From: Escherichia coli
Lineage (GTDB): Bacteria > Pseudomonadota > Gammaproteobacteria > Enterobacterales > Enterobacteriaceae
NCBI RefSeq assembly: GCF_024223415.1
Contig: NZ_CP100500.1
DNA: 64,000 nucleotides
Reading direction: 5' to 3' (one strand)
Part shown: positions 18,001 through 21,000 of the stretch, in pieces
Position numbering within the stretch: the stretch's first letter is position 1
Layout: each line of letters begins with the position of its first letter
Program-made: the position numbers

Positions 18001-21000
18001 AACTCAGTACCATGCTCGACCAGCGACAGCAAACCCTGCTATTGCCAGAGAGCGCCGCCGACATCACCGTTCAGGGTGATGCAACCCTGCTGCGGATGTT
18101 ATTGCGAAACCTGGTAGAAAACGCCCATCGTTACAGCCCGCAAGGCAGCAACATTATGATTAAGCTGCAAGAAGATGGCGGAGCGGTCATGGCCGTTGAA
18201 GATGAAGGACCAGGTATTGATGAGAGTAAATGCGGGGAGTTGAGTAAAGCGTTTGTACGTATGGACAGCCGTTATGGCGGGATTGGTCTGGGGTTAAGTA
18301 TTGTCAGCCGCATTACACAGTTGCATCACGGGCAGTTTTTCCTGCAAAACCGGCAAGAGACTTCCGGCACGCGGGCCTGGGTACGGCTGAAGAAAGATCA
18401 GTACGTGGCAAACCAGATATAAAGAAAGCTGCTGACCACCAGCACGCTGAACACGGTAGTTAAACTTTCATAAACACGGTTTTTCATTGCACTCTCCTCC
18501 GTTAATCTGGAGGAGAGTATGCGCGGCAGAGATTAAGTGAACCTTAAGAGTTCAATTGTTGGTCTGATAAGACAGCGTCACATCAGGCCATCCGTTTCAG
18601 CTTATTCATCAATTCGCGGATGTTGCTGCACCAGGCGGGTACGTTTCGCCTGCAAATCGGCAATCTCGTGGTCAATATCATCGATTTTCTGCTCGATATT
18701 ATCGTAATGCTCGACGAGAATTTCCTTCGCTTCCTGTATATCTGACGCCGCCGGTGTCGCACCTTTCAACGGACGATTTGCCGTCTCTTTCATGGTTACG
18801 CCGGTGATTAAACCAATCACCGCCACTACCATCAGGTAATAGGCAGGCATCATCAGATTCTGCGAGCTTTCGACCAGCCAGGCCGCCAGTGTTGGCGTCA
18901 GACCGGCAACCAGCACCGAAATATTAAATGCCGCCGCCAGCGCGCTGTATCGGATATGCGTCGGGAACATCGCTGGCAAGGTAGAAGCCATAACGCCCGT
19001 AAAGCAGTTAAGGATCACCGCCAGCATCAGTAACCCGGCAAAAATCAGGCCGATGACGTTACTGTTAATCAGAATAAACGCCGGGATCGCCAACACAAAC
19101 AGTGCAACACTACCAAGTAGCACAAACGGACGACGGCCAAAACGGTCACTCAGCAAGCCCATCACCGGCTGGACAAACAGCATACCGATCATAATGGCGA
19201 TAATAATCAGCACCCCGTGGTCTTCGGAGTAATGCAGGTTATGCGACAAATAACTCGGCATATAGGTCAGCAACATGTAGTAAGTCACGTTGGTGGCAAT
19301 TACCAGACCAATACATGTCAACAGGCTGCGCCAGTATTTAGTGGCAATCTCTTTAAACGAGACTTTCGGGCCATCCTGCAAACCTTCGCGGTCGCCCTGT
19401 TCCAGTTTATCAACATGCTGCTGGAACGCCGGAGTTTCTTCCAGCGCATGGCGCAGGTAAAGCCCGATAATCCCTAACGGCAGAGCAATAAAGAACGGAA
19501 TACGCCAGCCCCAGTCGAGGAAGTTCGCTTCGCCGACAATGGTCGAAATTAACACCACCACGCCCGCACCCAGCACAAACCCGGCAATAGAACCGAAGTC
19601 CAGCCAGCTGCCCATAAAGCCACGTTTACGGTCAGGGGAGTATTCCGCAACAAATATCGACGCCCCGGTATATTCACCGCCGACCGAGAAACCTTGTGCC
19701 ATCTTACAGATCAACAGCAGAATCGGTGCCCAAATACCAATCGTGTCGTAGGACGGTATTAAGCCAATACAGAACGTACTGATCGACATAATCACAATAG
19801 TGATAGCGAGGATCTTCTGGCGACCATATTTATCGCCCAACATACCAAAGAAGAGTCCGCCAAGCGGTCGAATCAGAAAGGGAACGGAGAACGTGGCAAG
19901 TGCAGCAACCATCTGCACGCTGGGGTCAGCCCCCGGGAAAAAAACTTTACCTAATGCGTAAGCAACAAAACCATAAACACCAAAATCAAACCATTCCATT
20001 GCATTACCCAGTGATGCTGCGGTAATGGCTTTACGCAGTTTACCGTCATCAATAATGGTGACATCACGAAGGGTAATCGGTTTTACTTTTTTCCTTTTCA
20101 GCATAGCTTTCCTCGCAGAGTTGGCCCATTTCCGCAAACGCCAGAAAAATCAGCGCGACGGCCGCAAAAGGGGAGCGGGAATTGCAGGATGCAATCTCTG
20201 TAACAAGCGTAGCGGGTTTGCTTACACCCTCCGGTTAAGGAATGTACAATCAAACCAGTTGACGCCTGAATTGGGCAGTTAATGACCTTTTTACCCTACC
20301 AGCGTTTAAATTTGTGATCAACTTCACACATGAATTTCGTTTAGGACTCATTGATGTAACTGATTATTTACACCAAATTTACAGAGAAGATTTCCTCGAG
20401 CATTGCCCCCGCCAGACGCTGCGCTGAACAGAGTCGTGGCATCCCCAGCGCGACAGTTTGCCAGCGTTGGGTCACTGACCAGCAAACGGGTTGTTTATCT
20501 GCCGTGGACCACTTTCCCAGCCAACTTAAAAAATCAGCATGATCCCCGCCCGTCGGAACGGTCGAAGAGGCAAACCACTGATGGTAATAGTGACGCGTGG
20601 TCGGGGCCGCATTGATACTCTCTGCCAGATGTTGTGTCGCTTTCACGCGCAAATCACCCAGCAACAACGCCACCGCTTGCGGGCTTCCCAGACGGCAGGC
20701 ATCGCCAAATGCACCCCAACGCAACTCTTCGAGAACGATAAAACAGCGCCCAGGCAACGACCAGGCGTTATACGCCCCAGCACGCCAGCGGGTAAAAATT
20801 TGCTCGCTCTGTTCACCTGCCTGCACCAGTAGGCCCCGTTGCGTTAACGCCTTTTCCTTCCAGCGACAACGGGCTGAAAACCACTCATACAAGGCGGCAA
20901 TTTGCTGGGGGAGCTCCGGGAAAGCAGAGTGCTGGCGGTGATCCATTTTTTGCAGCAGCGCCAGATGTTGCGCGATCTGCATCAGTGCCAGATGACCGGG

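What the first reader, a model, noticed from the sequence alone, without database searches (positions are those of the whole stretch)
18398..18487. 29-codon membrane peptide gene (pmrR) antisense-overlapping the 3' end of basS
This ORF is below the length threshold of the supplied track. Translating the minus strand from ATG at 18487 gives MKNRVYESLTTVFSVLVVSSFLYIWFATY, which I recognise as PmrR, a single-TM peptide reported to modulate lipid A modification. Its coding region overlaps the last ~25 bp of basS on the opposite strand, and a perfect 9-bp-stem hairpin containing its ribosome-binding site lies immediately upstream. That arrangement could couple termination of basS or proP with pmrR translation.
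Basis: partly seen in the sequence, partly recalled or inferred. Interest (0 to 1): 0.4.

Follow-up and report, generated by a model that had tools for sequence, protein, structure and literature searches.

The report
Known pmrR gene with RBS hairpin
This is the already known 29-codon E. coli gene pmrR (a membrane peptide that blocks the lipid A enzyme LpxT); the hairpin in front of it is a conserved part of the gene that most likely keeps it silent in RNA reading in from the upstream gene.

Summary
The minus-strand ORF 18398-18487 encodes MKNRVYESLTTVFSVLVVSSFLYIWFATY. It overlaps the last 25 bp of basS/pmrB and follows a perfect hairpin (10 bp, not 9) whose 3' arm is the Shine-Dalgarno sequence.

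It is pmrR, which is already known. RefSeq annotates it in about 5,400 E. coli genomes. It matches NCBIfam NF033224 at 74 bits (cut-off 30). Its translation, membrane location, PmrA-box dependence and LpxT-linked phenotypes are published for E. coli. The hairpin is already in the consensus structure of Rfam RF02052 ('STnc630').

What I add:
- A PmrA box, a -10-like hexamer, the hairpin and a 29-30 codon ORF recur in 55 of 80 pmrB loci across many Enterobacteriaceae genera, with compensatory base changes. All four are absent from the 25 loci without pmrR.
- The 5' arm coincides with the -10/discriminator of the PmrA promoter. PmrA-made mRNA should therefore start at the loop and lack the anti-SD arm. 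RNA reading in from proP (uvrB in most genera) contains both arms.
- Published Term-seq and TRS data place an RNA 3' end 4-5 nt after the stem.

The likely role is to insulate pmrR from upstream transcription, as IS10 does by fold-back inhibition. The transcription start was not found in any data I could reach. The basS overlap is not conserved.

The parts
18398..18487 (-). pmrR coding sequence (29 codons plus stop), the LpxT-inhibiting membrane peptide
   Evidence: Translation; RefSeq CDS pmrR WP_000797657.1; NCBIfam NF033224 at 74.2 bits against cut-off 30; frame conserved across genera.
18398..18422 (.). 25-bp antisense overlap of the pmrR 3' end with the basS/pmrB 3' end (pmrB is 17322-18422, plus strand)
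   Evidence: The overlap is not conserved: the pmrR stop lies from 56 nt before to 9 nt after the end of the pmrB stop codon in other genera.
18491..18500 (-). 3' arm of the hairpin, GGAGGAGAGU, which is the Shine-Dalgarno sequence; the ATG follows after GCA
   Evidence: Probability unpaired is 0.00 in read-through RNA and about 0.85 in RNA starting at 18509-18507.
18501..18508 (-). 8-nt loop (AGAUUAAC); the predicted PmrA-dependent transcription start lies at its 5' edge (18509-18507)
   Evidence: Geometry: the T of the -10 hexamer is at 18516, so +1 is 7-8 nt downstream. This is inferred, not measured. Position 18506 is A here and G in K-12 and three other E. coli strains.
18509..18518 (-). 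5' arm of the hairpin, ACUCUCCUCC (anti-SD); coincides with the 3' half of the -10 hexamer plus the discriminator
   Evidence: 83% of cells are paired against 38-59% in slid controls; alignment pair 35-56 is CG 18, AU 17, GC 6, GU 6.
18516..18521 (-). -10-like hexamer CATACT, 10 nt downstream of the PmrA box
   Evidence: In 53 distinct sequences the A at hexamer position 2 and the T at position 6 are invariant, and positions 4 and 5 (A, C) are at least 90% conserved. The eptA promoter in the same window has the same 10-nt spacing (GAGCAT).
18532..18548 (-). PmrA (BasR) box CTTAAG-GTTCA-CTTAAT, which replaces the -35 element
   Evidence: One of only two matches to YTTAAK-N5-YTTAAK in 64 kb, with 0.06 expected. 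Present in 55 pmrR loci and absent from 25 loci without pmrR. Deleting it in E. coli gives the LpxT-dependent phenotype (PMC8129183).
18561..18589 (-). REP-like stem-loop (GGCCUGAUGUGACGCUGUCUUAUCAGACC) between the proP stop and the PmrA box
   Evidence: Folds; conserved within E. coli. The identification as REP rests on my own knowledge of the REP consensus and was not tested.
18602..20104 (-). proP, the co-directional upstream gene whose transcripts read into the pmrR promoter and hairpin
   Evidence: RefSeq annotation. Term-seq and TRS 3' ends lie downstream of it at the hairpin.
18483..18491 (-). Window equivalent of the RNA 3' ends mapped in E. coli K-12
   Evidence: Term-seq 3' end at 4332116, the A of the ATG, equivalent to 18487 (PMC7815308 supplementary files 1 and 3). 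TRS 3' terminus spans 4332112-4332120 with its peak at 4332117 (PMC10687069 Supplementary Data 2).
18420..18444 (-). Stem-loop inside the CDS (UGCUG-GUGGU-CAGCA) followed by a U-rich run; terminator-like, role unknown
   Evidence: Terminator scan. It is part of the Rfam RF02052 consensus structure. Citrobacter keeps the pairing through synonymous changes.
18391..18556 (-). Full-length match to Rfam RF02052 'STnc630', which covers the pmrR promoter, hairpin and gene
   Evidence: 178.1 bits against a gathering score of 55. The family derives from the whole proP/basS intergenic region of Salmonella LT2.

Best explanation
Identity (shown). The ORF is pmrR, a PmrA/BasR-activated gene for a 29-residue inner-membrane peptide that inhibits LpxT. 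With LpxT blocked, lipid A carries fewer 1-diphosphate groups and EptA can add phosphoethanolamine.

The hairpin (mechanism inferred). It belongs to the pmrR transcription unit and acts as an insulator.
1. Its 3' arm is the ribosome-binding site. Its 5' arm is the -10/discriminator stretch of the PmrA-dependent promoter.
2. RNA polymerase recruited by PmrA should start at the 5' edge of the loop, about 18509-18507. The mRNA then has a leader of about 21 nt, no anti-SD arm and a free SD.
3. RNA that starts upstream carries both arms. The upstream gene is proP here and uvrB in most other genera.
4. In that read-through RNA the stem forms, hides the SD, and leaves pmrR untranslated.
5. Untranslated RNA is open to Rho termination and 3'-exonuclease trimming back to the stem. 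That would explain the mapped 3' end 4-5 nt after the stem.

The result would be that PmrR is made only when PmrA is active.

Shown: gene identity; the stem and its covariation; co-occurrence of box, -10, hairpin and ORF; the RNA 3' end at the stem; a Rho-dependent region downstream. Inferred: the start site, the translational silencing, and the order of Rho termination and trimming.
For: Identity:
- RefSeq annotation and the NCBIfam match.
- In E. coli, deleting the PmrA box gives polymyxin sensitivity that an lpxT deletion reverses (PMC8129183).
- Ribo-RET signal, membrane fractionation and a start-codon-dependent phenotype (PMC11429745).
- pmrR is co-induced with eptA, arn and basR under Fe(III) (PMC13405929).

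Architecture:
- The window has only two PmrA boxes, one before eptA and one before pmrR.
- In 53 distinct sequences the box is followed after 10 nt by nAnACT, with the A and T invariant. The stem starts inside this hexamer.
- PmrA boxes replace the -35 element. From the statement that the PhoB site at -41 to -25 lies 4 bp upstream of the pmra-box, I derive -37 to -21 for the pbgP box (PMC10570014).

Stem conservation:
- 83% of cells are paired against 38-59% in slid controls, and 46 cells have changes on both sides against 18 in shuffles (0 of 500 shuffles reach this).
- The stem occurs in 54 of 55 pmrR loci and in none of the 25 pmrB loci without pmrR.

Read-through:
- The upstream neighbour is co-directional in at least 41 of the 54 pmrR loci scanned for it. 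In two Kosakonia loci the uvrB stop codon lies inside the PmrA box.
- The SD is 0% accessible in read-through RNA and about 85% accessible in RNA starting at 18509-18507.
- 3' ends map at the stem base in two datasets, and a Rho termination region (score 8.6) lies 352 nt further on, antisense to basS.
- Plasmid-expressed PmrR is harmful without stress, so a tight off-state has value.
Against: - The pmrR transcription start was not found in any source I could read. Kato et al. 2012 is not held, and three TSS or transcript datasets gave nothing or were not held.
- Folding energies show no strand bias: -14.7 kcal/mol on the pmrR strand and -14.0 on the basS strand (p = 0.47). The sequence alone does not say on which strand the stem is selected.
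- Several genera (e.g. Klebsiella pneumoniae L026, Pseudocitrobacter, Pluralibacter) have what looks by eye like an intrinsic terminator just upstream of the PmrA box (sequences; not scanned with a terminator tool). That would reduce the need for a second barrier.
- A reporter carrying the region immediately upstream of pmrR showed no significant response to low Mg2+ (PMC11429745).
- Truncating the region downstream of pmrB changed pmrB mRNA about 315-fold between the +86 and +126 constructs (PMC8004244). The model does not explain this.
Confidence: 0.6

Rival explanations
1. The stem works on the opposite strand, as the 3'-end or stabilising hairpin of the eptA-basR-basS (pmrCAB) mRNA. Its link to the pmrR SD would be secondary.
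For: - The palindrome folds equally well on the basS strand.
- In BL21 constructs, pmrB plus 86 bp downstream gave low pmrB mRNA and no colistin resistance. By my mapping that construct ends at window 18508, in the loop. The constructs with 103 or 126 bp, which contain the whole stem, gave resistance (PMC8004244).
Against: - The stem is found only where pmrR is present. The 25 pmrB loci without pmrR lack it, and many of those have ordinary U-tract terminators instead.
- In several genera (e.g. Klebsiella pneumoniae L026, Pseudocitrobacter, Pluralibacter) a hairpin that looks by eye like a terminator oriented for the pmrB strand lies beyond the pmrR promoter (not scanned).
- No U-tract follows the stem on the plus strand (AUGCGCGGCAG).
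- No basS-strand 3' end appears in the Term-seq or TRS tables I could search.
- pmrB mRNA half-life was unchanged between the constructs.
- The +103 to +126 step (MIC 4 to 16) coincides with adding the PmrA box, which fits pmrR expression rather than pmrB stability.
Confidence: 0.15
2. The stem lies inside the PmrA-made pmrR mRNA as a 5'-UTR translational switch. It would open in response to temperature, a small RNA or a protein, or it would serve as a 5' stabiliser.
For: - SD-sequestering leader hairpins are common.
- RNA from this intergenic region was enriched 27-fold in the Hfq co-immunoprecipitation in Salmonella.
- PmrR levels appear to need fine balance.
Against: - The transcript would have to start upstream of 18518. 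That would place a -10 element directly against the PmrA box, and nothing is conserved there.
- The only conserved -10-like hexamer overlaps the 5' arm.
- A 10-bp G+C-rich stem of about -20 kcal/mol with the SD fully paired would give almost no translation unless something opened it.
Confidence: 0.12
3. The stem is simply the intrinsic terminator of proP and only incidentally contains the pmrR SD.
For: 3' ends map 4-5 nt after the stem in two datasets. The TRS authors, citing SEnd-seq, describe termination of the upstream gene inside the pmrR CDS.
Against: - No U-tract follows the stem (GCAAUGAAAAAC), and the terminator scan did not call it.
- The stem travels with pmrR, not with proP. In most genera the upstream gene is uvrB.
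- A Rho-dependent region lies downstream, which fits trimming back to the stem.
Confidence: 0.1

Closest known systems
PmrR of Salmonella enterica and E. coli (NCBIfam NF033224; Kato et al. 2012 as cited in PMC8129183 and PMC11429745)
   Same: Same gene. It is a 29-aa single-helix membrane peptide with a PmrA-box promoter, lying convergent with pmrB and downstream of proP. It inhibits LpxT, and E. coli genetics support that role.
   Different: Nothing in the gene itself differs. This window differs from K-12 by a 3-nt insertion between the REP-like element and the PmrA box, one base 5 nt downstream of the PmrA box, and one loop base.
Rfam RF02052 'STnc630' (Salmonella sRNA candidate from Hfq co-immunoprecipitation sequencing, Sittka et al. 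2008)
   Same: Full-length match at 178 bits. The family consensus contains the PmrA box, the SD hairpin, the AUG and the stem inside the CDS.
   Different: Rfam files it as an sRNA gene. Its coordinates are the entire proP/basS intergenic region, and no Northern signal was detected. What it actually models is a promoter plus a small protein-coding gene.
IS10/Tn10 'fold-back inhibition' of transposase translation in externally initiated transcripts (Davis, Simons and Kleckner 1985; from my own knowledge, not checked here)
   Same: The RBS sits in one arm of an inverted repeat. The gene's own promoter starts transcription within the repeat, so only RNA coming from outside can form the SD-sequestering stem.
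   Different: This is a chromosomal regulon member, not a mobile element. The start site is inferred rather than mapped. Here the stem also marks the 3' end of the upstream gene's RNA.
Convergent overlapping transcription units ('excludons')
   Same: pmrR-basS is listed among the convergent E. coli excludons found from RNA-seq coverage (PMC12288877). The pmrR 3' UTR runs about 100 nt antisense into basS.
   Different: Both partners are activated by the same regulator, PmrA, so mutual exclusion is not the obvious logic. The coding overlap is not conserved.

Membership tests
PmrR (NCBIfam NF033224, equivalog) | Profile HMM score above the curated cut-off of 30 bits over the full 29 residues | tested here: met
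   74.2 bits, E = 5e-21, residues 1-29 matching profile positions 1-29.
PmrR (NCBIfam NF033224, equivalog) | Genomic position: convergent with pmrB at the end of the eptA-basR-basS operon | tested here: met
   The same position is found in 55 of 80 pmrB loci.
PmrR (NCBIfam NF033224, equivalog) | PmrA-dependent promoter with a PmrA box (YTTAAK-N5-YTTAAK) in the -35 position | tested here: met
   The box is at 18532-18548, 10 nt upstream of a -10-like hexamer. Actual PmrA dependence comes from the literature.
PmrR (NCBIfam NF033224, equivalog) | Binds and inhibits LpxT in the inner membrane | not testable with these tools
   Literature only. E. coli genetics are in PMC8129183 and membrane association in PMC11429745. 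The growth phenotype in the latter paper was independent of LpxT.
Rfam RF02052 STnc630 | Covariance-model score above the gathering threshold of 55 bits | tested here: met
   178.1 bits, model positions 1-166 of 166.
Rfam RF02052 STnc630 | Acts as a discrete non-coding small RNA | not testable with these tools
   The source study gave whole-intergenic-region coordinates and detected no Northern signal. The region encodes a translated peptide.
Intrinsic (Rho-independent) terminator | G+C-rich stem-loop | tested here: met
   10-bp stem with 6 G-C pairs, about -20 kcal/mol.
Intrinsic (Rho-independent) terminator | U-tract immediately 3' of the stem | tested here: not met
   GCAAUGAAAAAC follows on the pmrR strand and AUGCGCGGCAG on the basS strand. 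The terminator scan did not call it.
Fold-back inhibition of read-through transcripts (IS10 type) | The RBS lies in one arm of an inverted repeat | tested here: met
Fold-back inhibition of read-through transcripts (IS10 type) | The gene's own transcript starts inside or after the upstream arm | tested here: inconclusive
   The position of the conserved -10-like hexamer predicts a start at 18509-18507. No start-site data could be obtained.
Fold-back inhibition of read-through transcripts (IS10 type) | Externally initiated transcripts are not translated | not testable with these tools
   Only predicted: SD accessibility is 0.00 in read-through RNA.

The most novel reading that the evidence does not exclude
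The pmrR leader would be a conserved chromosomal example of promoter-embedded fold-back insulation. The anti-SD arm is the promoter's own -10/discriminator, so only foreign read-through RNA (from proP or uvrB) can hide the SD. That RNA would then be ended by Rho and trimmed back to the stem, which would also shield basS from convergent interference. The arrangement would have been kept by compensatory evolution across more than 15 genera of Enterobacteriaceae. It also defines a wider PmrR-like peptide family (Klebsiella, Kluyvera, Kosakonia, Enterobacter and others) that the current NCBIfam model misses.
Probability: 0.5. Interest if true: 0.4.

Novelty: already known. Interest (0 to 1): 0.22.

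Why it matters
The gene itself adds nothing new. pmrR is annotated and has been studied as part of the polymyxin and bile-salt resistance circuit.

The comparative result is a modest addition:
- It explains how a potentially harmful small membrane peptide, placed directly downstream of an unrelated and differently regulated gene, could be kept strictly under PmrA control.
- It gives a simple reading of the published but unexplained '3'-downstream region of pmrB' effect on colistin resistance. By my mapping, the truncation points fall in the hairpin loop, between the -10 hexamer and the PmrA box, and at the distal edge of the PmrA box.
- It flags an Rfam 'sRNA' family that is really a promoter plus a small ORF.
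- It shows that syntenic PmrR-like peptides in Klebsiella and other clinically relevant genera escape the current NCBIfam model.

Tried and rejected
I used one genome-contig scan with PmrB instead. It returned no Salmonella locus, so the Salmonella architecture is taken only from the Rfam consensus.
- Kato et al. 2012, the founding PmrR paper, is not held. Thomason 2015 and Kroeger 2012 are not held either.
- Searches of the Cappable-seq and SMRT-Cappable-seq supplements for pmrR or nearby coordinates found nothing. The Ribo-RET preprint has no supplements held. The transcription start therefore stays inferred.
- A strand test comparing folding energy on the two strands was inconclusive (p = 0.47). 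RNAalifold on the MAFFT alignment recovered only 6 of the pairs because a few sequences are shifted by 2 columns. I relied on explicit pair counts and per-sequence folds.
- The sigma-70 promoter scan found nothing in 18300-18750. This is expected for an activator-dependent promoter with no -35 element.
- A chance palindrome is rejected by the covariation. A classical intrinsic terminator is rejected for lack of a U-tract. A functional need for the basS coding overlap is rejected because the overlap is not conserved.
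Full report
**Observation.**
- The minus-strand ORF 18398-18487 translates to MKNRVYESLTTVFSVLVVSSFLYIWFATY.
- basS/pmrB ends at 18422 on the plus strand, so 25 bp are shared.
- The hairpin is a perfect 10-bp stem, not 9. It pairs 18491-18500 with 18509-18518 around an 8-nt loop.
- On the pmrR strand it reads ACUCUCCUCC/AGAUUAAC/GGAGGAGAGU, then GCA and AUG. The Shine-Dalgarno sequence is the 3' arm.
- The fold is well beyond shuffled controls (z = -3.4; 0 of 200).
- Perfect stems of this length are rare in the window: 4 distinct, or 9 counting nested registers, against about 0.7 expected on the same count.

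**Identity.** The window is E. coli.
- The 401-bp stretch occurs in 5,408 of 5,426 complete E. coli genomes. RefSeq annotates eptA, basR, pmrB, then pmrR ('LpxT activity modulator PmrR', WP_000797657.1) and proP.
- The peptide matches NCBIfam NF033224 at 74.2 bits against a cut-off of 30.

**What is published for E. coli.**
- Deleting the PmrA box of pmrR in a pmrA-constitutive strain abolishes polymyxin resistance and restores deoxycholate resistance. A further lpxT deletion restores polymyxin resistance. The authors also describe the overlap with pmrB (PMC8129183).
- Ribo-RET shows a 5-fold rise in start-site reads in low Mg2+. PmrR-6xHis is in the membrane fraction. A deletion phenotype is complemented only when the start codon is intact, and overproduction without stress is harmful (PMC11429745).
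- pmrR rises with eptA, arn and basR in Fe(III)-adapted E. coli B.
The gene is already known.

**Conservation of the frame.**
- One genome scan with PmrB gave 80 loci.
- A 26-33 codon ORF (mostly 29-30) lies convergent with pmrB in 55 of them. The genera include Escherichia, Citrobacter, Yokenella, Raoultella, Klebsiella, Phytobacter, Pseudocitrobacter, Kosakonia, Trabulsiella, Enterobacter, Kluyvera and Pluralibacter, among others.
- The peptides share an invariant Phe and Trp (F21 and W25 in E. coli numbering), a hydrophobic core and a C-terminal [TS][YF].
- Within Escherichia and Citrobacter, variable sites fall 13, 4 and 17 at codon positions 1, 2 and 3.
- NF033224 recognises only the Escherichia/Citrobacter type.
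- The overlap with pmrB ranges from about 57 bp to none.

**The hairpin and the promoter.**
- The window has only two matches to the PmrA box consensus: 14950-14966 before eptA and 18532-18548 (minus strand) before pmrR. About 0.06 are expected.
- In every pmrR locus the box lies 41-46 nt from the ATG.
- I aligned 53 distinct box-to-ATG sequences (A2). Ten nucleotides after the box comes nAnACT, with the A at position 2 and the T at position 6 invariant. Those are the two key -10 positions.
- The eptA promoter in this window has the same spacing.
- PmrA boxes take the place of the -35 element. From the comparison with the PhoB site I derive -37 to -21 for the pbgP box (PMC10570014). Here the box would span about -39 to -23.
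- The stem's 5' arm begins inside this hexamer and ends about where +1 should be. In E. coli the T at -7 is 18516, so +1 falls at about 18509-18507.

**Covariation.**
- 83% of cells are paired against 38-59% when partners are slid by 1-3 columns.
- 46 cells have changes on both sides against 18 in shuffles (0 of 500 shuffles reach this).
- One pair alone shows CG 18, AU 17, GC 6 and GU 6.
- Per-sequence folds show the stem in 54 of 55 loci. The 55th locus, L066, has a GTG start and was read.
- The 25 pmrB loci without pmrR have neither the box nor the stem. Many of them carry ordinary U-tract terminators.
- The stem therefore belongs to pmrR, not to pmrB as such.

**Which RNA forms the stem?**
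- Sequence alone does not decide. Folding is equally stable on both strands (-14.7 against -14.0 kcal/mol; p = 0.47).
- Context and experiment favour the pmrR strand.
- The neighbour upstream of pmrR is co-directional in at least 41 of the 54 pmrR loci scanned for it. It is proP in Escherichia and Citrobacter and uvrB elsewhere, often only 19-60 nt from the box. In two Kosakonia loci the uvrB stop codon lies inside the box. Upstream transcripts must therefore enter the pmrR promoter.
- In E. coli K-12, Term-seq places a 3' end at 4332116, the A of the pmrR ATG, 4 nt after the stem (PMC7815308).
- TRS places a 3' terminus at 4332112-4332120 with its peak at 4332117. The TRS authors state that SEnd-seq showed termination of the upstream gene inside the pmrR CDS (PMC10687069).
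- A Rho termination region (score 8.6) lies at 4332468 on the same strand, antisense to basS.
- There is no U-tract after the stem on either strand.
- Predicted SD accessibility is 0.00 in RNA starting at the proP stop and about 0.85 in RNA starting at 18509-18507.

**Proposed mechanism.**
1. PmrA-initiated mRNA starts at the loop, lacks the anti-SD arm and is translated.
2. RNA entering from proP or uvrB forms the stem, which hides the SD.
3. The untranslated RNA is terminated by Rho and trimmed back to the stem. This gives the observed 3' end and spares basS from convergent read-through.

The logic is that of IS10 fold-back inhibition, which I cite from memory. The start site and the translational effect are inferred. 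I put about 0.97 on the gene identity and about 0.5 on this mechanism.

**Rivals.**
- A pmrB-strand 3' stabiliser. Xu et al. found that pmrB(G361A) needs at least 103 bp downstream for colistin resistance, and that pmrB mRNA differs about 315-fold between +86 and +126. By my mapping, +86 is 18508 (in the loop), +103 is 18525 (the stem and -10 are complete but the box is absent) and +126 is 18548 (the box is complete). The MIC steps of 0.5, 4 and 16 track first the stem and then the pmrR promoter. Half-life was unchanged, and the stem's distribution argues against a general pmrB role.
- A leader switch inside the PmrA-made mRNA. This needs a start site for which no -10 element exists.
- A plain proP terminator. 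This is contradicted by the missing U-tract and by the stem travelling with pmrR rather than with proP.

**Known resources.**
- Rfam RF02052 'STnc630' matches 18391-18556 (minus strand) at 178 bits. Its consensus includes the PmrA box, this stem, the AUG and a second stem inside the CDS.
- The family stems from a Salmonella Hfq co-immunoprecipitation candidate whose coordinates are the whole proP/basS intergenic region. It had 27 reads against 1 in the control and no Northern signal.
- ExcludonFinder lists pmrR-basS among convergent overlapping pairs.

**Verdict.** The finding is correct and is an already known gene, so interest is low. The promoter-embedded anti-SD architecture, its covariation across genera, and the unrecognised PmrR-like peptides are modest additions. 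One 5' end-mapping experiment would test them.

Noticed in passing
window 18391-18556 (-): Rfam RF02052 'STnc630', filed as an enterobacterial sRNA, is in fact the pmrR promoter, leader and coding sequence. Its seed coordinates were a whole intergenic region, and no Northern signal was detected in the source study.
   Followed up: yes
L013-L068 (e.g. L026 Klebsiella pneumoniae, L048 Kluyvera, L044 Kosakonia, L040 Enterobacter): Syntenic 29-30 aa peptides share the PmrA box, the SD hairpin and the invariant Phe and Trp. Six representatives tested (Klebsiella, Kluyvera, Kosakonia, Enterobacter, Yokenella, Phytobacter) get no hit from NCBIfam NF033224, so pmrR-like genes in these genera may go unannotated.
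   Followed up: partly
L044 and L068 (Kosakonia), about 3700-3715; most loci from L013 onward: In most genera the gene upstream of pmrR is uvrB, not proP. In two Kosakonia loci the uvrB stop codon lies inside the first half-site of the PmrA box.
   Followed up: partly
window 18420-18444 (-): A terminator-like stem (UGCUG/CAGCA) with a U-rich tail lies inside the pmrR coding sequence and is part of the Rfam consensus. Citrobacter keeps the pairing through synonymous changes (ACUG/CAGU). No mapped 3' end was found there.
   Followed up: partly
window 14934-14966 (+): The eptA promoter has a 14-bp-arm palindrome (ccAACCTTAAGaaCTTAAGGTTgg) that adds a third CTTAAG half-site upstream of the PmrA box. 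It is one of only four distinct perfect hairpins of at least 10 bp in the window.
   Followed up: no
window 33994-34023 and 54900-54922: Two further perfect inverted repeats of at least 10 bp with short loops. I did not examine them.
   Followed up: no
window 18509-18536 (+): On the basS strand the same palindrome gives GGAGGAGAGT directly followed by ATG CGC GGC AGA GAT TAA, a 5-codon ORF. The ATG is the reverse complement of the CAT in the E. coli-type -10 hexamer and is missing in other genera, so this is probably a coincidence.
   Followed up: partly
window 18508, 18525, 18548 (= pmrB stop +86, +103, +126): By my mapping, the truncation points used by Xu et al. 2021 (PMC8004244) fall in the hairpin loop, just upstream of the -10 hexamer, and at the distal edge of the PmrA box. 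Their stepwise colistin MICs (0.5, 4, 16) may therefore reflect the stem and pmrR expression. The authors did not make this link.
   Followed up: partly
window 18554-18558 and 18506; L005 (NZ_CP083870.1): This window carries a 3-nt insertion between the REP-like element and the PmrA box, and an A (not G) in the loop, relative to K-12. Only about 40 of 5,409 records are at least 99% identical over 18380-18610. One 18-kb 'plasmid' record holds a frameshifted copy of proP and pmrR, most likely an assembly or sequencing artefact.
   Followed up: no
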